Positions 1 to 63,006 of a stretch of 64,000 nucleotides of DNA are shown piece by piece. The translations under genes and the position numbers were made by a program. Under the pieces are notes generated by a model that did not search any database, was not told the origin of the DNA, and saw only the letters and a list, made by a program, of their open reading frames with translations. Each line of letters begins with the position of its first letter. Positions within the stretch are counted from its first letter, which is position 1. The stretch is from Mytilus trossulus (taxonomy: Eukaryota), in NCBI RefSeq assembly GCF_036588685.1, contig NC_086380.1:44826001-44890000 (forward strand), written 5' to 3'.

Positions 1-90
1 TAGCCGTATTTGGCACAATTGTTTGGAATTTTGGGTCCTCAATGCTCTTCAACTTTGTATTTGTTTGGCTTTTTAACTGTTTTGATCTGA

Positions 91-134
91 GCGTCACTGA
101 TGAGTCTTATGTAGACGAAACGCGCGTCTGGCGT
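91..134 (+). ncRNA. Minimal type I hammerhead ribozyme
   Basis: GCGTCA-CTGATGA-GTCT(TATGT)AGAC-GAAA-CGCGCG-TC^-TGGCGT: stem I, core, stem II, palindromic stem/loop III (ACGCGCGT); cleavage predicted after 128. Confidence 0.88.
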
Positions 135-445
135 ATTAAATTATAATCCTGGTACCTTTGATAACTGTTTACACCACTGGGTCGATGCCACTGCTGATGG
201 ACGTTTCGTCCCCGAGGGTATCACCAGCCCAGTAGTCAGCACTGTGGTGTTGACATGAATATCAATAATATGGTCATTTTTATAAATTTTCCGTTTACAA
301 AACTTTGAATTTTTCAAAAACTAAGGATTTTCTTACGCCCAGTAGTAGATTACCTTAGCCGTATTTGGCACAATTATTTGGAATTTTGGGTCCTCAATGC
401 TCTTCAACTTTGTATTTGTTTGGCTTTTTAACTGTTTTGATCTGA

Positions 446-489
446 GCGTCACTGATGAGTCTTATGTAGACGAAACGCGCGTCTGGCGT
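446..489 (+). ncRNA. Minimal type I hammerhead ribozyme
   Basis: Identical to 91-134; cleavage predicted after 483. Confidence 0.88.
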
Positions 490-1204
490 ATTTTAAAAAT
501 TATAATCCTGGTACCTATGATAACTGTTTACAGTACTTTTTTTTTATCATTATGTACCAATTTCAACATTGATTTTAAAAAAGTCGATACTTGATAAAAT
601 AATACACAAAACAGTGACCTTACATAGATCCACAGTTTTTGACATGAACACGATCTATGTATCTGACAGCCTATAAAGAAAGTAAGAATTTCTTAAGATA
701 ATATAAATTTATTTTCAAACAATTTTTAACAAACAAATTATAGATCATAAATTCATTAATTGAATGTATTCGTTGTAAATAAATATGAATACACTTTGTC
801 TACATATAAACACTGAAATTACAAGACGAATACCTCTGATATGTCAACATTAGAGGCAGAAATTTTAATCCACCATATCGATAATTAAGGGCATATGTTA
901 CAGTTTCGATCTTATGGAGATTTGTTTTAAAAAAATGCAAACAAACAATTTTCACTTGGTAATTTCTAATGTGTTTTAAAATTTGATTGGTAATTTTTTA
1001 CTTAAATTGGAATAAATAATATCCATACAGTATCATATTAAATTACATTTAAAAATTAGGGTTACAGGTAACTAGGGAATATCAGCCCTCGAAAAATGCA
1101 TAATTTTCTGAAATTTCGCAATTTAGGTTAGCAACGTCATAGCACCCCTTGAAACTGTATTGTATGCCCTTGATGTCTCTCCAGATATGCTCATTGGAAT
1201 AACG

Positions 1205-1695
1205 TTTGTGACTTGATTAACTTCACTAATGTCTTGTGAATGAATGTCACTACATGAATATATTGTTTTTGTGAATAAATATGACTTAATTTGTAAACGA
1301 GTGTCACTAAGTTTGTGAATGGATGTCACTACATTTGTGAATTGATGTCACTGCATTTGTGAATAGATATTACTTTCTTTGTAAACGAGTGTTACTTAAT
1401 TTGTGAATGGATGTCACTACATTTGTAAATGGATGTCATTACATTTGTGAATGGATGTCACTACATTTGTGAATTGATGTCACTGCATTTGTGAATAGAT
1501 ATTACTTTCTTTGTAAACGAGTGTTACTTAATTTGTGAATGGATGTCACTACATTTGTAAATGGATGTCATTACATTTGTAAATGGATGTCACTACATTT
1601 GTGAATGGATGTCACTGCATTTGTGAATAGATATTACTTAATTTGTAAACGAGTGTTGGGTACTTTGTGAATGAATGTCACTTAATTTGTGAATT
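1205..1695. repeat. 22-bp minisatellite with a 132-bp higher-order repeat
   Basis: Consensus TTTGTGAATGGATGTCACTACA; the order of unit variants recurs at +132 (e.g. 1341 and 1473). Confidence 0.9.
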
Positions 1696-3004
1696 CTTAC
1701 AAATACCTATAAAAAAATATAACGGTAACACATAGAAAACATAACCAATTTTCTTTCTTAAAACAACATGTAAAAAATTTGAGAACAGTAACATAAACCA
1801 TCATCAAAAAATTGTTTAATCTAGAAGGCAAATGAGTTTAAATATAAAGAGAGATACGCAACTTGAACTTCATTAATTCATAGTTTTAACAAATTCGATA
1901 CTTTAACGAGACACACATAAAAAAAATTAGAATAAAACAAATATTTGGAATCATTGGATAAATTACGAAAATCATGTTAATGCCGTATCCAAACGAACTT
2001 ATCAATATACAAGAAAAGCTTACACTCAAATCTGTGTAGTTGAAAATGATATGTTTATCTGTTACGTTTTTTGTTTCATATGGTTAACAAAACCCATCCA
2101 ATACAAATTGCTCATCAAAGACTTTCAATGAAGTTTTATAAAACGATGTTCACCACAAAAGCATTTAGATAGAAATAGTCTTTCATTTTACAAAATTTTC
2201 AGTGTTCTACTTTTCAATGAATAATCATTAATTGCATTTATATATTAAAACAAAGCTCAACGATATTGAAAAGAATGAAAATCAAGCTTTTTCTTTAATC
2301 AACTTTTTAATCTTATTGCAAAATTCTTTTTGTGAACTGGATATTCTATGATGATACCTATCATATACACACAATTTACATACACAAATGAACAACCTAT
2401 ATACAATGTCTTGAGAGCTTCATTATAAAAAATAATTATTATTTTCGCATTGTCATATTCATTTGGAAGCTCCTTACTATATCATGACTAAATTATCGCA
2501 CCTAGAATTCATGACGGTATAACATTTGTTCAAAACCTACATTTTACGAAATGAATTGGTTTATTTGAACAACATAATAAGCATCTAACAATGTGTGACA
2601 AAATATATCCAGAAAGGAACGGAAAAGTATGATAAAGCATTTTTTATTAACATCTTGTTCTCCAAAATCAAAATCTTGACAAAAAAAAACCCCACTGAAA
2701 ACAACACCTTAGATACTTTGTGCGTCTGAAACATGTCTAAATCATAGTTCCAATGATCATAGTTCTGCAAAACAATATGTAAGCTTTCAGTGTTTTATAC
2801 AAAACAAAGAAAAAACAGAGTGCTGTTATAAGTATGTGAAGATACGATGCGATATGAAAAGTATTTCAGAACAATATTATAATTATATATTGTATTCAGG
2901 ATAACACTAACTACATTTGAATTAATACATTCTTCAAACATCCTTTTTTCATTCCATTCATTGTACTTTGTTTGAACAATCCAACTAGAAATACACACAT
3001 TTAA

Positions 3005-3277
3005 GGTGGTACCTAACACTACAGGGAGATAACTCTGTAAAGTCAGCTAAACGTTTTAATTACATTGTGTTGTAAAGGGAATATTAAGCTTCTCAATGAT
3101 CAAAATTGGTGTTTGTCAAATTGCTATATAACCAGTGTAATTTTTCTGACAAAACGGTAGGTTCAAAATTTTAGAAATTTTTATATTTTTGTTTAAGAGT
3201 CAAAGTAAATACATTGTCCAAATTTTATGAAAATTAAACGAGCCAATTTAATTTTAGTGAAAGTGTTGGGTACCACC
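3005..3277. mobile_element. MITE with TTAA target duplication (Kolobok-like)
   Basis: TTAA|GGTGGTACCTAACACT ... AGTGTTGGGTACCACC|TTAA: 16-bp TIR with 1 mismatch and purine-purine termini. Confidence 0.8.
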
Positions 3278-4094
3278 TTAAATCAATCGATTTTAACCAA
3301 ATACAAATACACTGATTATCAAAATACATAGTATATACAGCAAATATATATCGTTTCCATTTACATGTTACATAAGTAATATTTAAAAAAAAACCAGTAG
3401 AAATTATATTAACATATCATATTTTTTTTAAAGTTTTAATAACTGCAAATTGAGCGTTTTCTCTGCTGAACAGAACATGTTGCTTCATACCGAGTTATCC
3501 TGATTATTTACATTCTTTAAGTGGTATTTTTAAAATTTTGTGTAACATACATGTTTCACTTTAATATGGATAAAATTAAAATCGATCGAAATGTTTATTG
3601 AGAAGACATACGCTGGAAAAGAAATCTTTGGCAAAGAGAAAACAATGGAAGACAAAAAGCTGATTCACAATAAAAAAAAAAACACAAGGAAGGAAAAAAA
3701 CTTCTGGCTAATTAGAATATACGCCAATATAATGTTAATTCAAATTTGACATTCTTGGTGAAAATCACTTTATAATGATCCTTAAAGTAATGCACTATAA
3801 ACAAAACCGAAGATACACGTGTCATTATGACACATGATGTCTAAATTGAAACCAACCAAAATCATGATTTTAGAGGTGATTTTAGAAGTGATTTCGATAA
3901 TGATATTTTCTTTGACTAATAAACGAAAAAAAACCTCTTCAATATAATTTGACACAAATTTTCTGGTTAAATATGTTACGGTGAAATAATTCTATTTTCT
4001 GTATGATATACAAAGGTCATTAAATATATATGGATGAATAAGACGAATCAGAAAGAATAACTGTTTACTAGAACAAGATAAATTCAGAAGTTTA

Positions 4095-4222
4095 TGTTGC
4101 GGTATGCTTTGCTCATTGTTGAAGGCCGTACGATAACCTACTGATGTTAATTTCTGTGTCATTTTGGTCTCTTGTTGAGAGTTGTCTCATTGGCAATCAT
4201 ACCACATCTTCTTTTTTTTTAT
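4095..4222 (+). repeat. Dispersed repeat family C (GTTGAAGGCCGTAC...GTTGTCTCATTGGCAATCATACCACATCTT)
   Basis: Related copies at about 16860-16970, 26090-26400, 39775-39940 (-), 40508-40685, 50790-50945, 55935-56060, 56420-56630 and 61070-61470. Confidence 0.75.
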
Positions 4223-4423
4223 AGTTACTTATTCCTCTTACTGGAAATATTGAATAAATACAAGTATGATAATAGAAAAAAACATAGGTGATTCGTCGTC
4301 ATGATTTGTTTGTAATAAGTTAGCAAATATAAATCTTAGGTCTAAGTAGGTTTTATGTCAATATTTCACTTGTTCATCATCCCATTCTAGTTCCAAATGA
4401 TCTATTTGTTGTTTTGACAATCA

Positions 4424-4678
4424 TCAGCTTGTATGAAGTAATCCACATTTGACTCCTTCAATTATGCTTCCTAAATACTTTTTAAGAATTGGACGAAATT
4501 TTTTGTTCAGCATAAAATAGATAAGGGGATTAACTACTGTTGAAAGTTTCGCAAACAGCACTGCAATAAGGGTAATCCTGACAGGTACCTCTCCTTTAAA
4601 ACCATAAGCAGTCCATAAACTAACCACTGCGTACGGAGACCAAAGTCCAACGAATCCTATACACATGGTTAATGTCAT
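4424..4678 (-). CDS. Opsin exon 5 (TM6, TM7, helix 8, stop)
   Basis: Acceptor TTTTACAG|ATG; encodes WSPYAVVSLW, the retinal-binding Lys in LFAKLS, and NPLIYFMLNKKFR; ends in TGA. Confidence 0.93.
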   Translation of the reverse strand: MTLTMCIGFVGLWSPYAVVSLWTAYGFKGEVPVRITLIAVLFAKLSTVVNPLIYFMLNKKFRPILKKYLGSIIEGVKCGLLHTS

Positions 4679-7600
4679 CTGTAAAAGATTTATTAGAAAA
4701 CTATTATAATGTTTCTACAACTCAAATCAATCGTAAAATTAATGTGTCACATCTAAATATTAGCAGAATGATTTTTACATACATGTTTGTTATTAATTAA
4801 ACATTATATTTCACAAACATATTAAATCACTATTGGTTTAAAATGAATTAAAAGAAATGTCAACTCGAATAACCTGTAATCATTCAAAGAATTTTACAAA
4901 TTTATATACAATTATCGAATATAAAATCTAATGACAGTTTAAATAGATTTTTCTCGTTAATTTCTAAGATCTCTCAAAAGCGATTCAGTAATCAGTTAAG
5001 TTCCTTTAGATTTAAAGTCGTTTTAGGATTAAATATCTAATGGCATATATATACTTAAAATAGACAAATGTGTTAAATCTCTTTCTGAAAATAAGTGCAT
5101 GAAAATCTCAATACATTTACTTCGATAAATAAGTTTTACAATGACACATGCGTACAATTGCAGATGAAGGTACGCTAAAAATCCTTTGTAAAACTAAAAT
5201 TACCAGACTTCAGAAACTTATGTTTGGCTATTTCAATGCTTTTTTATAAAAAGGATATTTGAAAAAAAACGTCAAACGTTGAAATTTACAAAGACTCTTA
5301 CAGACAAAACTTTGTTTTATGTGGAGCTATTGAATGCTTAGGTTAAACTGCAGTGGCACAATTTGTTCATTTATAGGGTCGCAAGAGGATTAAAACAGGT
5401 ATATTTGAACTCAATATGGATAAAGAGATATATCACGTTAACGCTTTTGGAAAAACAAGTCAACTATAAAATAAAATGTCAATCTCTTATGAATTTCGAC
5501 CAATCTCGAATTTGTTTTATTAACATCCAGAACCCTATAATTTGTCTTATGATGCAACATTTAAACCATGAATTAAAGTCCTACACTATTCTTTGCCAAA
5601 TACAAAAGAAAAATGAACATTAAAGAGCATTGCTAATGTATGGTGTTAATTTTTGCTCTAACTGATTAGTACTTTATTTAGTTGAATTTGTCCATGTTTA
5701 ACCATGTCCTTGCCTTCATTCATTTTATGAACAATTGATTTTATTTTGTACAAATCATCTCCTTATCCTCATACTTTGAGGTTAAACTTTATATATGTGT
5801 ATAACTGTTACCTTAATTAAGTACGAATCTCTTTTCTTCACAGATGGTTTAACAGTCATAATTGTTCTTCTTGTTCGTCGTCTTGATCTTCTTATGTGCA
5901 ATAAAATACGTCCATATGACACTTTCATTACAATCACTGGCACAATTACACATGCTATTAGGAAGAATGTAACAAAAATATGATGTCCATGCCAGGCTAG
6001 TGTACAAGATGTTCCATAAGGTTCAGGTCCGTAAGCACCAATTCCGAATACAGGCAAAAAAGCCCAAAAGGTAGCATAACAGTATATTCCAACGATGGAA
6101 AATTTTGTATGTAGAAGGATTTTTTGAGCTAAAATAAATGTTCAAAGTTAAGTAATGATTTCAAAACTTCAGGAATTTAAATATTATACTTATTTCTAAT
6201 ACAAGAGGTGTCCAATTATCTTTTTTTCAAAAACAATGAAAAATATTTAACCACATTTTATATACTAGTAAAAAAGTACCATTTACATTGGTAACGTTTG
6301 TTTAACTATGTTATATGCATGAGATGAAAGTTTCAAAATGATTGCTGACAGTTTTTCTTCTGTATAAAGCTTTCAGATGCATGCAGATTGTTATCGTCAG
6401 ATTGTGTTATTAATTTCATTAACCACCATGGTTGTTTAATGTTGCATCTATCAACAAGATAGCCCAAGGCTTAATATTAATGATAATTGTTTGTTATAGT
6501 AAGACAATTAACCGTATCAAGTTTATGGCACAAGATAAGGTTTTCGATAATAATTGCTATTTAATAATTCTGGACTCTCAAAGTATTTAAAAAAAAAATA
6601 TAATGTAAACGTTTAAGAGCTGATGACGCAAAAATTAAGACAACTTTCCTCCAGAGACCATATGAGGAGTATTGAAATTTACCAACGTCTATAAGAAGTG
6701 AATGTAATGTCATCTATATTTGATAATCTATAACGTATATAAATATCTTACTAAGTAAGTTACGCGCGCGCAATATGCAAGCTAAATTAACAAGTGTCTG
6801 TACATTATACTTAAACATCTTCACCTTAGTTTTAATAAATAAAACACGCCTGAAATCGACATGACAGATATTCACGTTCATCAGCATTAATTAGTTGATC
6901 AATACGCCGTGTCGGTATCTCATATATGTAACGACATGTTTTATTGGTCATAGATGTTATGATATCAACAAAGTCGTATGATCTGTAAGTTTTCCATTTG
7001 TGACATTTTAACCTCTTTTGTGTTTCGAGCGTCAGTGATGACGAAATGCACGTCTGGGGCCTATTTCAATCACGGTATTTATGATGAGTTTGTTTGAGTG
7101 ATGTCGTATTCCAATGAAGATATGACACACATAGTCTATCTGCTGTTGGAGTTCATACGATTTCCTCAGTTTTTGCTTGTAACCATGATTTTACTTTTTT
7201 AAACCATGTATTCATAATTATTTTCCTTGTTTTCAAGAAGATACTTCATCCTACTATAAGTAATAGATAAATAACATTTGCACTTAACTACTAGACATAT
7301 TTTTGTTGTACAATTTAAAAAAGTATTGCCATTACGTTCTCCCTTGTAAGTAAAGAGTTTACATAGAACCAAGACCGATTTGCAGAAAAATTTCTGCAAA
7401 GTGAATTATTGCCGCTGAAATGAAATGATATGAGTTTGAGAGTGAACCTGTTGACAAAGATTCATTTACGTGTTTATCTTTGTTAAGAACATTTTAATGC
7501 GCAAGGACACTCTTTTTGCTTGAATTATACAAACTGCATTCGATTTGATGACATATGCATATCATCAATGGATTATACATAAATAAGGTTCAAGGATTGT

Positions 7601-10600
7601 TCTCAACTACTTTTAATTACATTCTGAACGACCACTTCATATCAATTATTGATCGTGTTCTAATCGCAACATAACCTCTCATCTTTGTTATATGATTACA
7701 TTTGCTTGTGATAAAATCCGTTCTTACTATCAGTTTTAGCTAATTTTCTAGTAGCAGCCCATAACAAAGAAAGAACAAAATCACAATTGAAAAGAAACAT
7801 TTGAAAAATGAAAACATAATACTACAACATTATTTATTGGCACTAAATTTCATTTAACAAATTGAACTAATTGAAATAAATTAGACTTTACATGAATTTT
7901 GTCCTTGTATTACATTAACTCACCATGCTTAACCCCACACACTTTGATGTATCGTGCATAACTTATAGCTGCAAGGCTTGCTATGCTCACAACGCCACAG
8001 AAAAATCCTATGAAACCATAGGCTGCACAAACTGAAATACATCAGAAATTATATATAGTTCGGGACACTTCTCACTGAAATGTATCAATAATTCGCCAGA
8101 TGATGCATTGTGGAACAAAATATTTTATAATTTAGATTCAAAAGACCTTATGAATGATTTATCAAGAATTAATAATGATGGTAATCATCGGATACAACAT
8201 GGTTCACCAAAGTAAGCAATAAAATAGACTTGAAACTTTTCGCTGCAGTTATATATATTATCCAAATGTGCATGTAAGATTCAAATCGTATGTCTTCGCG
8301 TCCGAATAGAACTTCGTTGCTGGTTTAGTATTCTTTTTTATATTATTTGTGTAGTTTCGGTATGGTCATTTGTAGTATATGAATTGAATCTTTCTTCAAT
8401 TATTAAATTATACCTTCATTTGAAATTTCGAAAATCTTAATACTTAGGCTAGATGCGTATCATCTTCAAATAATGGAGGCTATACAATTTGAAGTATTAA
8501 ATGTTCGTCAAGGAAATTGTTTTGCTAAAATTTTGTCTGAAATGAACCATTCTACTGCCTAAAGAACGCAAAAAAAGTTCTACTCGGATTAACAATAAAA
8601 CACACTTACCAAAATAATACTTACGAAATTCCCCAATAATCCATTGATGATATACAGATGAATAGATTGTCAATGGAAATCCAAACAATGGCATGAACAG
8701 GTCGATGATTGCCAAGTTTAAAATATAAAAATCACACGAAACTAATGATTTCAGCTTGCGTATACACACACACAAGACAAGTCCATTCAAGACTGTTGAC
8801 AAAATACCTATAAAAATATAAAAAGTTGAAATTGTCAATCAATATCTACTGATACTACATGCTATTCATAGACTATGCACGTTAAGTATACTTGTCCAAG
8901 ACTTACTACGAATTTTTTTGGGGGGAAGGTATGTACGATTATAGTTATCAAAGGTACCAGGATTATAATTTAGTACGCCAGACGCGTGTTTCGTCTACAC
9001 AAGACTCATCAGTGACGCTCATATCCATATATTTATTTAGCCAAACAAGTAAAAAGTTGAAGAGCATTGAGGAAATTCGAAAAAACAAGTAAAAAGTTGA
9101 AGAGCATTGAGGAAATTCAAAAAATTGTGCCAAATACGGTTAAAGTAATCTATAAAATTGAGAATGGAAATGGGGAATGTGTCAAAGAGACAACAACCCG
9201 ACCTTAGAAAAAAATAACAGCAGAAGGGCACCAACAGGTCTTCAATGTAGCGAGAAATTCCCGCACCCGGAGGCGTCCTTCAGCTGGCCCCTAAACAAAT
9301 ATATACTAGTTCAGTGATAATGACGGCATCATAATTTTCTAATTGTACACAAGAAACTAAAATTAAAATAATACAAGACTAACAAAGGCCAGAGGCTCCT
9401 GACTTGGAAAAAAATGCGGCGGGGTTAAACATGTTTGTGATATCTCAACCCTCCCCCTACACCTCTAGCCAATGACGAAAAGTAAACGCATAACAATACG
9501 CACATTAAAATTCAGTTCAAGAGAAGTCCGAGTCTCATGTCAGAAGATGTAACCAAAGAAAATAAACAAAATGACAATAATACAAAAATAACAACAGGCT
9601 ACTAGCAGTTAACTGACATTCCAGCTCCAGACTTCAATTAAACTGACTGAAAGATTATGATTTCATCATATGAACATCAGGCACAATCCTTCCCGTTAGG
9701 GTTTTGTTTAGTAGCATACCATCATAACATATATGAAAAGAACATATGCCTGGGATAAGAAAATCCTTAGTTTTGTAAACAGGAAATTTGTAAAAATTAC
9801 CACATTATTGATATTCATGTCAACACAGAAGTGTTGAACACTGGGCTGGTGAAACCCTCGGGGACGAAACGTCCACCAGTAATGGCATCGACCCAGTGTA
9901 AATAGTTATCAAAGGTATCGGGATTATAATTTAGTATCCCAGACGCCGGTTTCGTCTACACAAGACTCACCAGTGACGCTGAAGAGCATTGATCATTAAC
10001 GAAGTTTTTTTTTTGGGGGGGGGGGGGGGGGATCATCGTTTTTAACACTGTCTTGGCCATCCATTCAAATGATATCAAATGATCAACCCAGAATAGCTTA
10101 TTTGATCATATCTGCTACTCAGCTTTATACTAACCTGATCGTGGTTCGTTGTTTGCAAAGGTAAAACTGTGCTTGTCTCAAGGACTAGTATGATTTACTG
10201 TCATTAGCATACGATATGCATCATTCCAAGACCCAAGAGAATTTAATAACTGTCTCTGGTCCAATATATTTTGACGAGAACAAAATAAGGATGGTTCATT
10301 TATATGCATTTACCTACACAATTTCATATCAATATAATAACGTAGTGTCTAGGTAAATTTGAAAATGTTATAACCGACAGTAACAAAGTAAATTAAATCA
10401 TTAATAAAGCAAATACAGTTGTAAGAGAAATTTCGCGACGCTATTGGTTTGGAAGGTCTTCACATTTGTCTAAATAATGCAGTCAATAATGCAGAAGATG
10501 ACTTTTAACACTTGTGCGTCAAAGCAAAAAGACTACGCCATGACAAAAACGGAAAATAACGAAAGACCAACAAGTCAAAGAAAATCTCAATAACGAACTA

Positions 10601-19600: not shown

Positions 19601-22600
19601 TTTTCAAGGTTAAATGGTTTGATACCTTTCGCCAAAAGTCTCATGGCTATATCATGTATACATATGAGCTGAAAGCAAAGGTCAAAAACTAGAACGTCAA
19701 ATTAATCTATGACCTTGAGATCAATTTCAAGGTCATAAACCAAGGACCTAAAATCAAAAGACCATAGGTCTTAATTATATTTGGTTAATCAGTTATATCA
19801 CCATACGCGTATTTTTAAATACAAGAGGGGAGAAAACTCACTTTTAAGTTCAACGTACCCTTGCAATCAAAATTTACGTGTTACGACATGTCGCAACTTA
19901 CAATTTAGAAAAAATAATTTGTCGATATCTTATATGGTTTCTGGAAATTAGTGGAAATAAGTCAAATTCAAAAATTAGAATATGACCTTGACCTTTGACC
20001 TTGACCTATTTTTAATTTTTTTGGACCAAGGACCTCAAATCAAAAGATCCTAGGTCTCTATCACTTATGATTTATAAGATATAAATTCATATCACTTATA
20101 TCAGATGCATAAGGGGAAATAACTCTCATATGGAGCGGTCATATCGCTTCGGTCAAAATAGGACAAATCATGCGAAGGATATAACGAGCAATTTTGTAAA
20201 ATAAATTTGTCTTAATCTTTTACGGTTGCGAAGGAGATGCGCTAACAAGGAAAACAGTGTTTGGGGAGATAACTCCTACAAAGAAAAGTATTCGTTTACG
20301 CAGGGTAAATTTCAAAAGCGCATAAACTGTTCGATATTATATACCAAATATCTAAGCGACATATTGCGAAACAAATGTTTATCGCAAGAGCAAAATTAGG
20401 CGGAAGAAAAAAAAAAAAAAAAAAATAATCAGAAGAAAAACAATAGGTCTTTCCACAGAAAAGTGGAAAGACCTAATTAAAAAGAAAGAGGCAGAAGATA
20501 TCAACAGAACAATGAAAACATTGATTTGCCAATAAGTTTTATACTAACGGCAAGCAAGACATTCGTATATTTACTTTGGTTCCAGTTAATAAATAAACAT
20601 TAATTTTTGTTAATGAAGATGAATAACCTGATAGCAATCCGTGCGAACACTATAACATAGGTCATAAATGTAGTATGATGTTTCAGTACTGTGTGCTCAT
20701 AAATACATATTTATCCCTAAGAGCTGTTGATATGCTTACTACATATACTCTCTTGAATATGCAAATTATATGTCAGCAAATGATATAATAGGATGGTACA
20801 TACTAACCGGTCTATGTGGGTTGTTGACAATAAAACATGTAAAAAGGAAAGTCTCAAATGATGGGATCTTTCAATTAAAATGGGTATCATTTTAAGACAA
20901 ACGTTGGAAATAACCAAACATAAGTTAACCTTGTTTATTGTTGTAACAACCTTCTTATCTTTATTACAGTTAGTGTCCATTGATGGTGTGAAATTGATCG
21001 CCATTTAAACACAAGAGCATTCAGAGCATTGCATCACTCATCAGATCTTTTACAGTGTCATTCAATCAAATTTTCTAAACTTCGGTAACTCCACAGACTT
21101 GTCAATTCCTGTTTAATAAGAAGCACCCGTTGTGATACTTACGGTATGCAAATAAACTCATCGTTGAAATCAGGCTTTATCTTTGAAGGGCAGATGCGCC
21201 ATAATTTTATAACAGACTCACAAGCTACGGTTGAATAAAAAAGCAAAAAAAGACCGAACAAACTAAAAAGTTGGAGAGCATTTGGAATCCACATTCCCAA
21301 AAGGTTTTGTCAAATACAGCTAAGGTAGTATATTCCTTGGGACAAACAATCGAAAAGTAAAAATGCTACAAATCGGTGTTCTGTGTGTCATCTTCACTTT
21401 AGTTTTCTGTATGGTGTGTTGTCTACTTTTAAAAATGTTCTGTAAGAAAGTTGTTGTCTTTTTTGCGAAATATGATTTTTTATTGCTCCCTTGGTATCTC
21501 TTTACTACTCACGTTTTGCAAATATCAATGAAATAATTATACTACACATTTCTATTTAATTAAAGACAGGAAAAATAAAAGATGAGATATCTTCCGAACC
21601 TACTCAATCTTTTGCCTCGTCAATACATTAAAGATAATAATAAGAACACAAAAATGAGACAAAATACCTCTATTTGATTCCTTTAGCTACAGCTGTTTAA
21701 ATCATATTCACATTAAAAAAAAATGATCTGTCGTAAGAAAATTTGAAAAAAGTTGGAGATGCGATAAAGTGTTTTTAATTAGAAACAGGACCTGCCTACC
21801 TTTCTGAGACATGATTCTCAATCTGATTTGTGTTTATGTTGTGTTTTCAGAATTTGTAGGACATTTCGTTGTCTTTTGAAATTTGGCATTTTATTTTGAC
21901 TTATGAGCCTGAATGTCTCTTTTATATCTTCGACATCTGTTAACGTAAGTTACACAAAAACCGATTTGAAATGCTGGCCCCTAGAATATTCTCTGTTAAA
22001 ACTCGTATGTTAAGTTTATGAAATAAAATAAAATTAGGTGATACTCCATTTTTTATATCGAGTGTCGAAAACCTTGCTGTAAAAGTTAAATAACAAATAT
22101 ACTTTATTCAGAGGGAAATTAAACCCGAAAAATCTTTAATTGATTCAATGTTATCGTTAACTCATTCAATTAACTTCCAATTACAATTTATTTAAAGATA
22201 GGACTTTCTCTTACATTAAATATATTAAAAAAAAAAATTATAAAAAAAATAGTACAAGCCATTGTAGGTACAGTTTCAGTCCGGTGTTGACCTGAATATC
22301 AATAATGTGGTCATTTTTCTAAATTTAAAAAAAAATTAGAATTTTTCGAAAACACTTAGAATTTTCTCATCCCAGGCATAGAATACCTTAGCCGTAGTTG
22401 GCACAACTTTTTGGAATTTTGTATCCTCAATGCTCTTCAACTTTTTACTTGGTTGGCTATAAATATTTTGATATGAGCGTCACTAATAAGTCTTATGTAG
22501 ACGAAGCGTGCTTCTGGCGTACTAAATTATAATTCTGGTACCTTTGATAACATTTACACCACTGGGTCGATGCCACTGCAGGTGGACGTTTCGTCCCCGA

Positions 22601-25600
22601 GAGAATCACCAGCCCAGTAGTCAACACTCCGGTGTTGACATGAATATCAATAATGTGGTCGTTTTAAAAAATTTCTGTTTAAAAAACTTTGAATTTTTCG
22701 AAACACTATTGATTTTCTTATCACTGGCATAGATTACCTTTAAGTTAGCCGTATATGGCACAACTTGGTTGGCTTTATAAATAATTTGATATGAGCGTCA
22801 CTGATGAGTCTTATGAAGACGAAACGCGCGTCTGGCGTACTAAATTATATCACGAGTAGGTTGACCGTTTCACAAATGATATAGGATATGTTCCTTACGT
22901 CGTAACTACAATCCCCTTCACTGTCATGAATGTGACCTACCGAATTAGACTATTTACCGGATTTGATATCACATAAGCAACACGACGGGTGCCACATGTG
23001 GAGCAGGATCTGCTTACCCTTCCGGAGCACCTGAGATCACCCCTAGTTTTTGGTGGGGTTCGTGTTGTTTATTCTTTGGTTTTCTATGTTGTGTCATGTG
23101 TACTATTGTTTGTCTGTTTGTCTTTTTCATTTTTAGCTATGGCGTTGTCAGTTTGTTTTAGATTTATGAGTTTGACTGTCCCTTTGGTATCTATCGTCCC
23201 TCTTTTATAATCCTGGTACCTTTGATAACTTTCAGACGTCACACATATATCAAATTTGGTTATTCGTTATTTTAATTATCTGAAATTAGTAACGTCCTCA
23301 TGTCTGTATTGACTTTAAAAAAAAATGTCACTTAGTGTTAACTTCAGACCCAAATAATGACCCTTATCACATCATCCTTTGCTTATTTGCTAACCAAACA
23401 TTATTTCCTGATTGCTACAAAGACCTTTAAATACAAAGGATTTGCCTTTTTTTAAATTCTGTTGGTTGGTTGACTAATTTGCACATAACTTTGTTCAATA
23501 TTCTGGAGTATCAAAGTTGAAATTACATGCAGAAAACATACACGATGCTTCAAGATTGTTCATAACCAATTTGTAGTCAATTTAAAAAGAAATACAGTAT
23601 TTGGTTTCGAGTCCCCTTGTTATCTGGAAATCTGTACTCGAATATGCTATCAGGGTGTTTTGATGAGCGTGCGCATATCTAGAAGTTAAAACATTAGAAA
23701 AAAATGTGCTATCAGAACTAAACATTTATAACATGCTTCTGAAAGTTAAGTAAGAAACATTGCTTCCACAACGTGTTAATAATGTAACACAGATATAATT
23801 TTTTGTCTAACAACATGACGGAAACCGGATTGATCGTTAAATATCAACCAAGGACAGCAAAAGTTATAATTACGAATAACGAAGGTATTTCATCCAGTAT
23901 TTTTCCCATTTATAAGGCGTCTAATATTTATTATGATATTGATTAAAGCACCACAAAGTAATAAATAGAACAAGCGTACACACATTTAGAGAAACCCTAT
24001 ATCTCCTCTAAGACAAGTCGGTAACCTCATCTTAAGCTTCGTTTGTCTTTTTTTGTACCTTTATCGCACTTTGTGAATTTAGGCTTACACTGACTAGTAC
24101 CTTTTATCTTTGTTTTATAAATACTAGAGGAATTAAAATTTCTGTCGCAAGATTTAAAAAGATATTCAAATAAATTTCCATTACAAGTACGTCATTTTCC
24201 TTACGGTCAAACTGTTCAAGTGACATTTTACTGTGCATACATGTCCATATCAAATGGTAGAAATTCTAGACTCAGTGAGCATTTTTTATCTTGTTTCATG
24301 TCAATTGCAAATGAAGCTTCGATTTGAGACAATGTATTTTAAATTCCTTTATATTTTATGAATGAAATGCATTGAGAAGCAACATACGTTTTTGGACACT
24401 TAGTGGGGAAATATAATACATGCCGTGAGTAAAAATAACGCAGTTGCATTTTTATCCTTCGATTTCTCTTAGTTTAATTTGTCTCGTAATGTATCTATTA
24501 ACATTAACATCACAGTCTTTCCGTGACTTTGAACTTTTTAAATTGTAATTGATTGGATAAGTCAAATTTTGATTATTTTGCTTTTATTTAATTTGTAGGT
24601 ATTAAACAAATTGGTAATGTTATCCATCATTGTAAATCATGGATCGCTGGTGAGATTGTATAAGCATGCACACATTATAGTAATCATAATGGTAAGGTAA
24701 AAGTAGGTACATGATGCGGAATCTTCTGTCAGGGTGAATATGCTGGAATCTTTTGTGTATTCCCTGTTATATCAAGAATTTACTCTTTTTTTTTTAATGA
24801 AAACATGTTTGATCAATAATCTTTACTTTTAATATCATAGAAGGTATATCTGTGTAGAGTATAATAATCCTTTAATTGCGACTTTAATTACAATTTGATT
24901 TGATTGTCTTATATTTTTTTTTTTAGAATATACTCTCAACAAGAAGATAATTTCATGAATAATTTGTTATTTCCAAGAACGTGATATATTGTTTGATAAT
25001 CACTTAATTTCATTTGAGGTGACTTAACGGTCCATTGGGCCGGGTGTATTAGTATTTATCATATATTGTATATTTATAATCTATACATATTTACACATGT
25101 CACTATAAATAATAAATAATTTACTTACTTACTTACTCTCTATATCTGCACGACAAAATGATTAAACAGGGTGAAGTAACATGTATATTTCCCGTGAAGG
25201 TAATAACCACTAAGGTCAGGGGAGGGCTGTATGTGATGACTAAATTATGGATTCCTTATTGCCTGGTTAAAAGTCCTCGGTCAAACGATCTTTTTTTATC
25301 AGCGTTAATTTTCCTCCTTGCTATTACTAGATTTATTTTACTTGACTGGGCGGGGTTTAAAAAGTTCGCTTATTTCAAACCAGTCAATCTATACGCAGGA
25401 GTTTTGGGATTAACAATGAAGGGTCCAGTTATTCGTCCCATATCATGCACTCAGTTTATGCGTTTGGTGACACTGATAGGTGATTGAAATTCAATAAGAA
25501 TTATAACGGCAATCATCCTTATCACACACATCTTCAAATAAACTGTCCCTATGCAATTCAAGACATAAGCTTAGCCCGATCAGTTGAATTAATTTTGGTA

Positions 25601-37362: not shown

Positions 37363-38977
37363 CAAGAGAAATGAAAGAATAATCGGTTTCAGACATATGA
37401 CATATTCAAATCTACGAGATTAATATTTTTATTTGTTTTTCAATCTGAAAGTGGTACAACGGTATATTTGATTATTAAAAGTCAAATTTCGCTGGGAATC
37501 CTCACGGACAAGCCTTATAATGCTAAAGGAAAATTTTCAATTCTAAAAGTGTATTTATAACTTGGATGAAAGGTTTTCAAATTGACTCTCATATCACATC
37601 TTATATCTATGTGTAGGGTTCTATAGATAGGCTTTGAAACACCAACTTAAACTACCGGTTAACCGGTTAATCGGTCGAACGATTATCCGAGTAACCGGTT
37701 AGGCAAAAGTGTACAATTTGACAACCCTAATTAAAAGGCAAAAATTCGATGTTTGAAGTCAAATATTTTGTTGAATTTGATGCCGTAACTTTCTATTGCT
37801 TCAAATACGCTAATAAGAGATCAACAACTATAATAAAAGCGACATATCAGGTTTTTCGAGTTCTTTCATACATTGTGGTTGATTAATGGAAAGTGGTAAT
37901 TACGGGAAGTTATATACAGAAGGAACAATTGAAAAGCGTTGAATCGTTAAAACAATACCACGAGCCTTGAAGGCGAATGATTTTTTTGTTACGATCTTAC
38001 TCTTATCCATCGTGTCTTTTATAAAAACTAGTTGAAAACTCTTTGAAAATAACAGTTCTTGCATTGTTAGAGCTAAGTATGAATGAGTTCAAGTAACAAC
38101 CTCATCATATTGAATTATGCACAAGAAACTGAACCATTGAGTAGAAGTAAACAGGTTGTAGATTTAAATCATTAAAAAGAATTTAAACAAGATTCTTTTC
38201 AATTTCAGTGGAGTGTTCTCGTTATAATGTCATATTAAAAAAATCATATTTGAACTAATTTTAAGTTGACAAACCATGTGTCATATCGAATTTCAAAAAA
38301 GATACAAAACTCAAGATAAATCACAATTTACATTTGTATAGTAATGCATCAATACAGAAACATATCGCTCTAAATGGGGAGAAACTGGACAAATTTACAA
38401 TATATAACTCTAAAAACACGTCAAATAGGCAGAAAAAAATGGATACAAAATAGAATTGGAAAAAATCGTTTTCATTTCGAAGATATCAACAATCTTCAAG
38501 CTACCGGTATTTAAACATGTTAAAAACCTCGAAAATGAAGACACAATGGGATAAAGGATAATAAGACGTTATCTCTACAACTCTACTTAATTACAATCAG
38601 GCTACCTTTGATAACTATTTACACCACTGCGCCAGATCATGGTAATCATAACACCGATTCAATTGAAAGTTTCTATATGAATGCCGAAAGACATTTTCTG
38701 AACTGGATAACCGATTTTGCATTTGGCAAAAACAGTGTGTGTTTTTCCTAAATATGAAAAAAGCAATGTCCAGTACGGTTTCAGTTGTTTTATGTCTTTT
38801 CTTTAGCTGTAATATTGGTAGAACTGTTTTAGAACTGCGTGTTGCAATATTTCTTATTTGCTTCTTTAGCTTTATTCAAATTTTAGCGTATCAAATTGAC
38901 AACTTCATGTGACATAATTTCCTTCGATTTTCCGTAATTCTTTATAATTATCAAAAGTACCAGGATTATGATTTAGT

Positions 38978-39021
38978 ACGCCAGACGCGCGTTTCGTCTA
39001 CGTAAGACTCATCAGTGACTC
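38978..39021 (-). ncRNA. Solo type I hammerhead (retrozyme fragment ~38945-39040)
   Basis: Minus strand reads GAGTCA CTGATGA GTCT TACGT AGAC GAAA CGCGCG TC TGGCGT; one stem I mismatch. Confidence 0.7.
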
Positions 39022-39944
39022 TCATATCAAAATAGTTATATTATTTGTTTGATATTTGTTTTTCCTACTCTTGTCCTTTATGCATATTTTGATTAAGACG
39101 ATAATGCACATTGTATATGAAAATCAATTTTAGTTCATTGAAAATATGCCCCGATTGTCAGAGTCTTCTATTTCTAGGTTACAAAAACAAAGTGATAAAA
39201 CACAATGATATTTAATACCAATGACAAGCATGAATTCCATTAAACACCATTCTGGAAAATGTGTACTGATTTTTAAAATTCATATGATACAACAGACGTA
39301 TTGCAATCTTTTATAATAAATGTGTCAAAATTATATTATATTTCATTTCGATTTCAATTTGTAGAACATAATGCAGTGTTATAAATCTCAGCGTTCTTAA
39401 AAAAAAAATATACAGCTAAAACATTAACGAGCCGAAAGCTCTTTTTTCATTGAGGCTTCATATCAGTTATCTCCTAATTGCTATAAATAATTATCAGCCC
39501 TGGGATAAAACTTTTAAGGTTAACCATCCGACAACCTTAAGAGAAAATTTGTTTAGGAAGTGTATTTTTGTTATCAAGTAACTCAACCATGAATGAAGCT
39601 AATGAAAATATAATATAACTTGCTTATTTGACCTTTGAAAGTTGAAAACGCACGCGTGTTAGTGCAAACCAGATCGGTATGTATTCAAATAGTTAATCAA
39701 ACTATTCCAGGTATCTCTAGAAATAAAAAGTTATAACAATTGTTTTAAAAGATATCTCAAATAATTAAATATAAAAAAGAAGATATGGTATGATTGCCAA
39801 TGAGACAACTACCACAAAAGACCAAAATGACACAAACATTAACAATTATAGGTAATCGTACGGCTTTCAACAATTAGCAAATCCCATATCGCATATAGTC
39901 AGCTATAAAAGGCCCCGATAAGACAATGTAAAACAATTTACTAT

Positions 39945-41530
39945 GCAAAGTCAATGCTTGACCACGGATAGTGCTTGGAAGGGTGTTTGAAGAGATGTCC
40001 TTATACTATTTATTGAAATTTAAGAATATATATCAATACATTGTATATATTAACTATTCTCTTTCCTCTCACGAGTTCCGGCTTTACAGACTTTCTGGTA
40101 ACACTGCATCAACCTTCTTAAGCCATCTGAGGACTTTGCCTAGTATGAATTGGATACCTTAACTTCAGAAAATTTATCCGTACAAAAAACTGTTATTTCC
40201 GGCTCATCTGCATCTTCTAAAAAGAAATTGTGTATTAGATTGACTACATTTCTGGCTGTAGTGAAAGACAGCCTTCAGAAATTTTGTGCAACTGACTCGC
40301 GCAGTGTTAACCATATGTGGATTATACAAAAACTTTAAAGGACTTTTTGATAATCTAACATCGCAAATCTTTTTCTGAAATGAATTCTATAAAAAAAAAT
40401 GTTAAAAAGAAATGCTGACATGAATATCAATTATATAGTAATTTTTATAAATTTCCTATATACAAAACTTAGAATTTTTCAAAAAAGTAACGATTTTCTT
40501 ATTCAAGGTTTTCCCGTTTTAATGGTTTTACACTAGTAATTTTGGGGCCCTTTATAGGTTGTTGTTCGGTGTGAGCCAAGGCTCTGTGTTGAAGGACGTA
40601 CTTTAACCTATAATGGTTTACTTTTTAAATTGTTATTGGATGGAGAGTTGTCTTAATGGCACCCACACCACATCTTCCTATATCTATAGATTACCTTAGT
40701 CGAATTTGGCATAATTTTTTGGAACGTTTGGTTATCAATGCTCTTCAACTTAGTACTTGTTTGGCTTACTAACTTTTTATCTGAGCGTCATTGATGAGTC
40801 TTATGTAGACTAGCGTATTCAATTATAATACTGGTACCTTTTATAACTACATGTAACTATAATAACTTCCAATGTAAAAAAAAAAAGCAGCATACGATAT
40901 AACGGTATTACTTTGGAATGCCATAATTTGTATGCTGTTAATAGTGATAAAAAAGATAAAAGCTCATTGACAACATATTTAAAAAAAATCCTTGTAGGAT
41001 TTTCAGCAAGTTGTCAGCATTCATATGGGAACGAACTGTGCACCTCACCTTGTCGACCTCTTCTTTATTTTAACGAGTGGTAGTTAGTTCAGAAAATTGG
41101 AAAAAATTGGAAAATCGCAGATTTTGTGATTTTATATTTAAATACTTTTTGTGCGTCGTGCATGTCCGAGTGGTCTCTTCTTTTTTTTTTTTATATAAAA
41201 CTCAAATAATATTGTGATGCCAATCAGACAGGAGATAATCATTCAATTTCACATTCAAACATATTGATGATGCTCTTTCCATTCTGATTTGGTTTTAGAC
41301 TTACATCTCGATTTACCCCCGAAGCGGTCATCTCAATACCAGAATCTATGACAAACGAGACGATTTCTATTTTGAAATAAAACATATTCTCTACTTTAGA
41401 AGTAATATTCCAACTTTTTATATGTGACATATATCTCCAAACTCATTCAGTATTCAAGAGTTTGGTGAAGCATCGGAAAATAACAAGACCTTGACGATGA
41501 ATGATTCCTAAAAACTTTCACATATAATAC
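39945..41530 (+). mobile_element. Decayed Penelope-like retroelement RT, interrupted by a retrozyme copy
   Basis: Frameshifted motifs LPSMxWIP, ISGSS..LQKFC..VNHMWII, MGTNCAPHLVDLF (~41025) and HIDDAL (~41260); retrozyme at ~40415-40850. Confidence 0.75.
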
Positions 41531-61635: not shown

Positions 61636-61877
61636 TAAAATGAAGAAGAAAAAAGTTGAAACAATTGAAGAGTCTTAAATCCTATTAGAGGTCAACTGAC
61701 AATTTTGGTCATGTAGACTTTTTGTAGATCTTGCTATGCTGAACATTTTGAAACTCTCAAATTTCTGTCTATCTTTCATAATTGCTGAAATAAAGTTATT
61801 TGGCAAAATTTTAACACCCAATGAAATAATTTTCAGATCTCATTTTGCTAGGTATTTTATTGTTTCTCATCATTGTA

Positions 61878-63006
61878 AAAGAGGGACGAAAGATACCAAA
61901 GGGACAGTCAAACTCATAAATCTAAAACAAACTGACAACGCCATGGCTAAAAATGAAAAAGACAAACAGAAAAACAATAGTACACATGACACAACATAGA
62001 AAACTAAAGAATAAACAACACGAACCCCACCAAAAACTAGGGGTGATCTCATGTGCTCCGGAAGGGTAAGCAGATCCTGCTCCACATGCAGCACCCGTCG
62101 TGTTGCTTATGTGATTACAAATCCGGTAAATAGTCTAATTCGGTAGGTCAAATTCATGAAAGGGAAGGTGATTGTAGTTACGACGTACGGAACATATCCG
62201 ATATCATTTGTGAAATGGTTATTCCATAACGGTCAACCAACTCGTGATGGCGTCCGTAAAAAGTAAAATCACAAAAATACTGAACTCAGAGGAAAATCAA
62301 TTTGGAAAGTCCATAATCACATGGCAAAATCAAAAAACAAAATTTACGAAGGGATGATTTCAACTTCACCATTTGGAACTCTTGATTTAAAAGCTTCCTT
62401 GTGAGCAGTAACCCTCTATCAAGAAAATCATGATAGGAAATGCAAGCACGGGAATATCGTATCAATTGAGAGATATATACCCCGTATGCAGGTGCTGCTG
62501 GAATGTTGCTACTTAGAAATGGAAAGTTCACAATTAGAAAGCTGAAATCATCTCTTTTGTCGTAAAGTTTTGTCTTCAACCGACCCTCATTGTCAATTTC
62601 TAGATGTAAGTCAAGATATGAAGCTGACTTAACTCTATCTGTAGTATCCTTTATCTCCAATTCGATGGGATAGATGCGTTCCACATAGTCACCAAATTTT
62701 GAATTGTTTAGTGAAAGAACGTCATCTATATAGCGGAAAGTAGAGTTAAAGGATATTGCTAACTTCTTATCTTTCTTCCTAAGAAGTTCCTGCATGAAGT
62801 CAGCCTCATAATAATAAAGAAACAAGTCAGCAAGTAGAGGGGCACAGTTTGTTCCCATTGGGATGCCGACAGTCTGTTGAAAAACACGTCCTCCGAACGT
62901 AACAAATATGTTGTCAATCCATCTTGATAATATCGGTTTCAGAGAATTTTTTGTTTGAATCAGAGTGATTCTTTACAAAGTAGGATTTATCCCTCCCTAA
63001 GACAAG
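61878..63006 (-). mobile_element. Penelope-like retroelement, 5'-truncated, RT disrupted
   Basis: ORF 62286-62858 has GTNCAPLLADLFL, FRYIDD, YLDL, YDKRDDF and SNIP..AYGVYISQLIRY; an ~80-bp family E insertion at 62261-62338 breaks the C-terminus. Confidence 0.88.

What the first reader, a model, noticed from the sequence alone, without database searches (positions are those of the whole stretch)
1..531. Intact retrozyme unit: two hammerheads 355 nt apart that could release a circularisable RNA
Seen: two identical minimal type I hammerheads with predicted cleavage sites at 128 and 483, each with self-complementary ACGCGCGT in stem/loop III. Established: such minimal hammerheads act as dimers, and tandem hammerhead repeats of this size give small circRNAs in animals, including mussels. 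Inference: this copy is potentially active. The class is known, but it is usually unannotated.
Basis: partly seen in the sequence, partly recalled or inferred. Interest (0 to 1): 0.7.

Follow-up and report, generated by a model that had tools for sequence, protein, structure and literature searches.

The report
Mussel retrozyme array with Naiad hairpin
This is the end of a four-ribozyme tandem repeat of a known, very abundant kind in a genome that is likely a mussel's; it shares a predicted RNA hairpin with Naiad jumping genes and its copies stop just before that hairpin, so the Naiad enzyme likely copies its RNA into the genome.

Summary
Observation confirmed: two identical type I hammerheads (91-134, 446-489), predicted cuts after C128 and C483, 355 nt apart. 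The 'unit' is the 3' part of a 1,229-bp array of four hammerheads that starts 697 bp before the window. The exact core occurs 11,823 times in the genome. It fits the published mussel non-LTR retrozyme. The hammerhead is canonical, not minimal, and a single mussel repeat is reported to cleave. The family is transcribed (4 of 4 runs), but nothing shows that this locus is. Added value: bases 173-235 are 86% identical to a hairpin in the 5' UTR of the ribozyme-less Naiad retrotransposon, with compensatory pairs. Of 39 insertions, 37 end at +38 to +51 after the cut, at the foot of this hairpin; a second retrozyme family and Naiad itself end at the same place despite different tails. Naiad reverse transcriptase therefore likely starts there, probably on a circle. 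Not found in the papers searched; this scan noted it before at other loci of this genome, and I re-tested it.

The parts
1..128 (+). 3' part of the 330-nt second unit of the array; the array begins 697 bp before the window (L011 8304) and holds two more hammerheads there
91..134 (+). Type I hammerhead no. 3 of 4; predicted cut after C128; palindromic helix III ACGCGCGT at 120-127
129..483 (+). 355-nt cut-to-cut monomer (third complete unit), non-coding
166..174 (+). Family-wide 3' end point of insertions (+38 to +46 after the cut); inferred start of reverse transcription
   Evidence: 37 of 39 ends at +38..+51; 285-355 reads per run leave the repeat at 166 into mixed flanks
173..235 (+). 63-nt motif with a predicted bulged hairpin (stem 176-233), shared with the Naiad 5' UTR and two other retrozyme families; this copy has 197 G>A, which breaks one G-C pair
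235..254 (+). Predicted 8-bp hairpin; loop is UUCG in upstream units, UGUG here (244-245 changed)
446..489 (+). Type I hammerhead no. 4 of 4; predicted cut after C483; palindrome at 475-482
484..532 (+). Terminal tail: +1 to +44/45 of a further unit (with a 4-nt insertion), ending at the foot of the hairpin motif; no target-site duplication seen at this locus

Best explanation
This is the 3' part of a four-hammerhead tandem array of the mussel-type non-LTR retrozyme, likely inserted by the reverse transcriptase of the Naiad retrotransposon, which would dock on a hairpin that both RNAs share. Steps: (1) read-through transcription of arrays (shown for the family by reads, not for this locus); (2) hammerhead cuts give 355-nt monomers (shown in vitro for a mussel repeat in PMC7229834; predicted here); (3) a host RtcB-type ligase closes circles (published, in vitro); (4) Naiad protein binds the hairpin at +45 to +107, nicks AT-rich DNA and starts cDNA a few bases 5' of the hairpin (inferred from end positions and from the Poseidon experiments in PMC11167929); (5) it runs about 3.5 times round a circle and stops at random, giving a fixed 3' end, a ragged 5' end and near-identical units (inferred); (6) units then mutate separately (seen).
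For: Retrozyme; size and layout as in PMC7229834. Expression: 1,356-6,964 reads laid per run in 4 of 4 runs, 5-12-fold strand bias in the three runs that look stranded, even depth across the cut site. Polarity: 37 of 39 closed 3' ends at +38..+51, while 40 5' ends scatter, at most 6 in any 14-nt window. Shared motif: 63 nt, 85.7% identical, E 1.7e-15, in 4 of the 8 long-ORF Naiad loci fetched, 15 nt before the ATG; same predicted fold; 98.6% of cells paired, changes on both sides at columns 16/47 (C-G to U-A) and 31/36. Naiad ends: 7 of 7 ends inspected stop at CCCTCTTT(TA), just before the hairpin; 5,352 exact tail hits against 107 exact hairpin hits. A second family with a different tail: 9 of 10 terminal tails stop at TTTTATT before the same hairpin. 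One template per array: unit divergence median 0.85% within and 2.5% between loci; 15 of 20 arrays share rare letters in all units, control mean 0.6, max 4. A cut linear monomer offers only about 45 nt 5' of the start point, so longer inserts need a circle or an uncut multimer.
Against: No binding or reverse transcription was tested. Only one Naiad family was examined, and other Penelope-like clades in this genome were not surveyed. The covariation rests on six rows from four lineages, and the structure came from these same sequences (warns of both). Loci for the end counts were the best matches to this unit, not a random draw, and two (L078, L080) may be one duplicated insertion. Reads cannot tell circles from uncut multimers. 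The hammerhead fold is never the lowest-energy fold (cost 3.3 kcal/mol alone, 6.3 in the nascent unit, 9.6 in the circle), and the monomer folds no better than shuffles (z 0.24). No reads on this locus's 3' flank. In PMC11167929 initiation lay within a stem-loop, at two sites, and ribozyme cutting was not needed. I could not compare the sequence with the published mussel clones.
Confidence: 0.72

Rival explanations
1. Same Naiad helper, but the template is an uncut multimeric transcript, not a circle; the ribozyme and circles are a side product.
For: Reads run through the cut site without a dip or end pile-up. Hammerhead cutting was dispensable for Poseidon insertion in vitro (PMC11167929). 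Naiad itself sits in tandem without a hammerhead (L087; 0 cores in 30 loci). Long homogeneous arrays exist as sources.
Against: Circles are the main form in mussel tissue (PMC7229834). Arrays of only 2-3 units share rare letters in all units. The hammerhead is kept, with a covarying palindrome, in a family only 71% alike.
Confidence: 0.3
2. A retrozyme mobilised by another Penelope-like element or a LINE; the hairpin is only a relic of Naiad ancestry.
For: Ribozyme-bearing Penelope-like elements are the helpers proposed in print. I did not survey other clades. Naiads lack hammerheads.
Against: Three lineages with unrelated tails end at the same distance from the hairpin. The fold is kept by paired changes. 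Of the 30 loci, 20 were Naiad-type and 10 retrozyme copies, with no other autonomous carrier. No poly(A) tail or long duplication as LINEs leave (1 of 39 with 9 nt or more).
Confidence: 0.15
3. A satellite-like repeat spread by DNA-level recombination; this locus is an inert copy.
For: Very long arrays near a chromosome end. This unit has rare changes in both hairpins and no flank reads. 8 of 9 Xenopus dimers tested did not cleave. That this one locus is silent today is quite possible (about 0.6).
Against: A fixed 3' end with scattered 5' ends at dispersed sites on many chromosomes is not what recombination gives. Strand-biased RNA.
Confidence: 0.05

Closest known systems
Mytilus galloprovincialis non-LTR retrozyme (Cervera and de la Pena 2020, PMC7229834; read parts 1-4 of 6; supplement unreadable)
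   Same: Type I hammerhead in tandem repeats of about 350-390 bp, low GC, non-coding, thousands of copies, transcribed, related hammerhead families.
   Different: The parts read name no helper clade, no fixed 3' end and no shared motif; the 2020 review (PMC7761336 section 9) says animal retrozymes show no conserved motif that points to the helper. No direct sequence comparison with the published clones was possible.
Naiad Penelope-like elements (Craig et al. 2021, PMC8557442; read section 6 and word-search passages)
   Same: Shared 63-nt 5' UTR hairpin, same end point, 5' truncation, tandem layout, rarely a clear target-site duplication.
   Different: Naiad encodes a 995-aa GIY-YIG/RT protein and has no hammerhead; the retrozyme has a hammerhead and no ORF; tails and bodies are unrelated outside the hairpin.
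Poseidon of Anolis carolinensis, internal initiation (Frangieh et al. 2024, PMC11167929; main text read)
   Same: Reverse transcription starts inside the RNA at a structured site near the ORF start, a short way past a hammerhead cut site, and sets the genomic end.
   Different: Another clade; two start sites inside a stem-loop within the ORF; here one zone just 5' of a hairpin, and only inferred.
Xenopus retrozymes as derivatives of PLE pseudo-LTRs (Li et al., bioRxiv 10.64898/2026.07.22.740005; read parts 1-3 of 5)
   Same: Retrozymes as non-autonomous partners of Penelope-like elements, with similarity at their terminal repeats.
   Different: Vertebrate-centred, with Neptune and Poseidon the widespread clades; no mussel, no Naiad partner, no RNA signal or start site defined.

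Membership tests
Type I hammerhead (RF00163) | Conserved core CUGANGA/GAAA/NUH with helices I-III, helix I open | tested here: met
   (33 bits, E 2.6e-06, positions 1-45 of 45; 1 bit under gathering)
Type I hammerhead (RF00163) | Self-cleavage | not testable with these tools
   Reported for a mussel repeat in PMC7229834; reads show no end pile-up
Minimal PLE-type hammerhead | No helix III beyond the core; helix II 7-8 bp; helix I 4-5 bp | tested here: not met
   Here helix I 6 bp, helix II 4 bp, palindromic helix III: the canonical type of PMC4209133
Animal non-LTR retrozyme | Tandem units of 150-450 bp, one type I hammerhead per unit | tested here: met
   Four hammerheads, units 355/330/355
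Animal non-LTR retrozyme | Non-coding, GC under 50% | tested here: met
   No ORF of 100 aa over the array; GC 0.31 over window 1-2000. PBS and polypurine tract were not searched.
Animal non-LTR retrozyme | High copy number, dispersed and in arrays | tested here: met
   11,823 exact cores; loci on many contigs
Animal non-LTR retrozyme | Transcribed on the ribozyme strand | tested here: met
   Family level only, 4 of 4 runs; strand read from the usual library convention
Animal non-LTR retrozyme | Accumulates as circular RNA | tested here: inconclusive
   Reads cross the cut site and unit joints, which circles and multimers both give
Animal non-LTR retrozyme | Highly self-paired RNA | tested here: not met
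   Linear monomer z 0.24 against shuffles; the paper itself sets some mussel circles apart in their predicted fold. A descriptive trait, not the defining one.
Naiad (for the proposed helper, L087-L089) | N-terminal GIY-YIG, CxC, GxKY, DKA, C-terminal RT; Zn-finger with the mussel 5-aa insert; no hammerhead | tested here: met
   Pfam GIY-YIG 130-167 (weak, E 0.033) before RVT_1 640-849; CTC 426, GPKY 461, DKA 553, YIDD 839, CX9CxxC 84; 0 cores in 30 loci
Non-autonomous partner of Naiad | Shared RNA signal and shared insertion end | tested here: met
Non-autonomous partner of Naiad | Copied by Naiad protein | not testable with these tools
   Needs an in vitro assay

The most novel reading that the evidence does not exclude
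Mussel retrozymes are circular-RNA parasites of a ribozyme-less Naiad element: they captured its 5' UTR hairpin, which alone sets where the reverse transcriptase starts, and use the hammerhead to make the circle that lets the enzyme write tandem arrays by rolling round it. This names both helper and signal for an animal retrozyme and gives a 63-nt portable start signal for a Naiad enzyme.
Probability: 0.55. Interest if true: 0.72.

Novelty: new variant of a known kind. Interest (0 to 1): 0.5.

Why it matters
The locus itself is one of many thousands of copies of a published element. The link to Naiad matters: the helper of animal retrozymes is an open question (PMC7761336 section 9), and how Naiad proteins recognise RNA is not described in the passages I read. 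A shared 63-nt hairpin with a predicted start a few bases upstream turns both into one bench test, and would show a SINE/LINE-like partnership built on an internal signal rather than a shared 3' tail.

Tried and rejected
Rfam at gathering score: 0 hits in the window. Run search: no RNA holder listed among indexed runs; four raw-read runs with the same species label were laid instead, and they need not be from an individual with this insertion. Read ends at the cut site: none listed; fragmented libraries may hide them. The depth drop after 478 was rejected as a sign of cutting: it vanished on a stretch without the 4-nt insertion. A cluster of 5' ends at unit position 306-309 came from split alignments; merged alignments show scattered 5' ends. 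Target-site duplications: flanks share slightly longer words than controls (5.8 against 5.2 nt, sd 0.16) but only 1 of 39 reaches 9 nt; none at this locus. The 1,054-bp hammerhead spacing on C1 is a repeated segment, not an autonomous element. The LINE 3 kb upstream is not linked. A search for another autonomous carrier of the hairpin found none among 30 of 146 hits; RT fragments near 2 of 30 loci were not joined to the hairpin. The bacterial promoter scan is irrelevant and at chance level. Shuffle z-scores for the circular fold were lost when the script timed out and were not redone. Supplement of PMC7229834 unreadable, PMC4918200 supplements give only a label for a 375-nt Mytilus retrozyme, PMC5785218 not held: these may hold the published sequences or note the fixed end.

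Full report
Observation. The window opens inside a direct repeat of period 355. Rfam's type I hammerhead model matches 91-134 and 446-489 in full, 33.0 bits and E 2.6e-06 each; this is one bit under the curated threshold, so the default scan reports nothing. The cores are identical, with the palindrome ACGCGCGT at 120-127 and 475-482 and predicted cuts after C128 and C483.

The real extent. The window lies at G000:C8:44,826,001. The upstream DNA (L011) shows two more hammerheads. The array spans L011 8304-9532 (1,229 bp): a 140-nt partial unit, complete units of 355, 330 and 355 nt, and a 49-nt tail. The exact 32-nt core occurs 6,029 + 5,794 times in the 1.30-Gb genome, the reversed control 0 times. 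The genome is likely a mussel's: this is inferred from the repeat's fit to the published Mytilus element and from the Naiad zinc finger with the 5-aa insert that PMC8557442 ascribes to mussels.

What is known. PMC7229834 (parts 1-4 of 6 read) reports about 5,000 type I hammerheads in M. galloprovincialis in repeats of 350-390 bp, co-transcriptional cleavage of a cloned repeat at about 0.1/min, abundant circles in gonad and mantle, and ligation by RtcB (about 30%) rather than by the ribozyme (about 1%). Its supplement could not be read, so membership rests on anatomy, not on alignment to the published clones. By PMC4209133 (part 1 of 4 read) this motif is canonical, not minimal. The review PMC7761336 (passages and section 9) says most invertebrate motifs cleave as monomers. 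Computed on the bare cores, a double hammerhead is more stable than two monomers (-29.5 against -11.4 kcal/mol), and the active fold costs 3.3 to 9.6 kcal/mol over the best fold, most in the circle. Dimer help is plausible, not required; a closed ribozyme in the circle would suit a stable circle.

Expression. Four raw RNA runs with the same species label were laid on 179-900 and on 1-355. In one search, 3,245, 4,015, 6,964 and 1,356 reads were laid from 7.3-12.7 million records read per run. In three runs first mates on the minus strand outnumber the others 5- to 12-fold (bin 193-204), which by the usual convention means RNA of the ribozyme strand; the fourth run is symmetric. Depth is level across the cut (X23: 2,718, 2,609, 2,571) and no pile-up of ends is listed: circles and uncut multimers both fit. 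Against this locus: depth is 0 over the unique flank 554-900 in 4 of 4 runs, and at 197 the reads have G (625 of 630, 906 of 912, 1,556 of 1,565, 72 of 72 on the minus side) where this unit has A. The animals differ and one locus among thousands would be rare, so this neither shows nor excludes activity.

Insertion ends. I fetched 40 further loci (36 best matches, 4). Of 41 loci, 39 had a closed 3' end and 37 of these end at +38 to +51 after a cut site; the exceptions are one at +107 and one at +11 that resumes after a deletion. The 40 closed 5' ends scatter over the unit, at most 6 in any 14-nt window. Reads agree: 285-355 per run leave the repeat at 166 (+38) into mixed sequence. This array ends at +44/45. 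Clear target-site duplications are rare (1 of 39 with 9 nt or more). A fixed 3' end and ragged 5' end is the mark of target-primed reverse transcription from a set start (established knowledge).

The helper. Earlier notes of this scan pointed to a Naiad hairpin; I tested it. An RT fragment at window 62,286-62,972 led to long-ORF copies. L087 holds two tandem 995-aa ORFs with endonuclease before RT and the Naiad motifs. Retrozyme +45 to +107 (window 173-235) matches the 63 nt that end 15 nt before the Naiad ATG: 85.7%, E 1.7e-15, in 4 of 8 loci fetched; the other four have shorter or broken 5' parts or no hit. Both fold into the same bulged hairpin. Seven of 7 Naiad ends inspected stop at CCCTCTTT(TA), two or three bases before the motif; genome-wide the tail has 5,352 exact hits and the hairpin's first half 107 (patterns differ, so the ratio is rough). 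No hammerhead core of this family's pattern lay in 30 Naiad-hairpin loci; a looser pattern hit 2 of 20 such 3-kb loci, not examined further. A second retrozyme family (350 nt, 71% alike over 324 nt, palindrome ATGCGCAT) has the same hairpin behind another tail, and 9 of its 10 terminal tails stop at TTTTATT just before it. On six rows from four lineages, 98.6% of cells pair; three pairs change on both sides, one of them into a G-U and one at the loop where alignment is uncertain; slid controls give 37-50%. The rows are few and related and the structure came from them, so this is support, not proof.

Template. With a start near +42, a cut linear monomer gives only about 45 nt of cDNA. Longer inserts need a circle or an uncut multimer. 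Among 89 complete units from 37 loci, divergence is 0.85% (median) within and 2.5% between loci; 15 of 20 multi-unit arrays carry rare letters in all units, against 0.6 (max 4) in 500 random sets. This array has one such letter. That fits one monomer copied round and round, but a homogeneous source array or later conversion would also give it. In PMC11167929 (main text read) a Poseidon protein starts inside its RNA at a stem-loop, the starts match genomic ends, and ribozyme cutting is not needed: precedent for internal initiation, and a caution on the circle.

This unit. The 129-483 monomer has intact cores but 197 G>A (2 of 89 units), which breaks a hairpin pair, and changes at 244-245 in a UUCG loop. 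It could still be cut out; it is likely a poorer template than typical units.

Novelty. The element is of a known kind. Six paper searches found no statement of a Naiad-retrozyme hairpin; the 2026 preprint (parts 1-3 of 5 read) links Xenopus retrozymes to PLE terminal repeats and finds Naiad only in a coral. Subscription papers and unread supplements may bear on this. The scan has noted the same link at other loci of this genome; those notes are not independent evidence.

Verdict. Retrozyme copy: about 0.95. Naiad as helper through the hairpin: about 0.72. Circle as template, given that: about 0.6-0.7. This locus active today: about 0.3-0.4. Interest 0.5.

Noticed in passing
window 8943-9152 (-), 9760-9980 (-), 22283-22849 (+), 38948-39038 (-), 40413-40848 (+): Further, older pieces of the same retrozyme family in the window, three with a recognisable hammerhead core.
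   Followed up: partly
window 22850-23208 (+): A 5'-truncated Naiad 3' fragment sits inside the tail of a retrozyme copy, between AAATTA(TA) and TAATCCTGGTACC: insertion at an AT-rich site or a template switch.
   Followed up: partly
window 61877-62972 (-): 5'-truncated Naiad copy with an RT fragment and the full 3' UTR; very abundant family (46,017 candidates, 150 scored).
   Followed up: yes
L116-L120 (G000:C5:60.42 Mb): About eleven tandem 78-bp copies of the Naiad hairpin alone, in front of a Naiad ORF start.
   Followed up: partly
L125-L154, e.g. L143: Second retrozyme family, 350 nt, hammerhead with CUGAAGA and palindrome AUGCGCAU; a third family (tail GGTATCTATGATGAG) shows in reads and in L127, L135, L145.
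   Followed up: partly
L027-L029 (G000:C1:160-165 kb): A 1,054-bp repeated segment near a contig start in which the retrozyme's 5' end is joined to TTAGGG-like repeats.
   Followed up: no
G000:C1:269-294 kb and 113-118 kb: Very long retrozyme arrays (about 70 and 15 units) near the start of C1.
   Followed up: no
L011 1913-5694 (+), about 2.6 kb before the array: Endonuclease-RT LINE in several frames, L1/Tx1-like by recalled motifs.
   Followed up: no
window 1268-1694: 22-bp minisatellite, 19 copies, with a 132-bp higher-order period.
   Followed up: no
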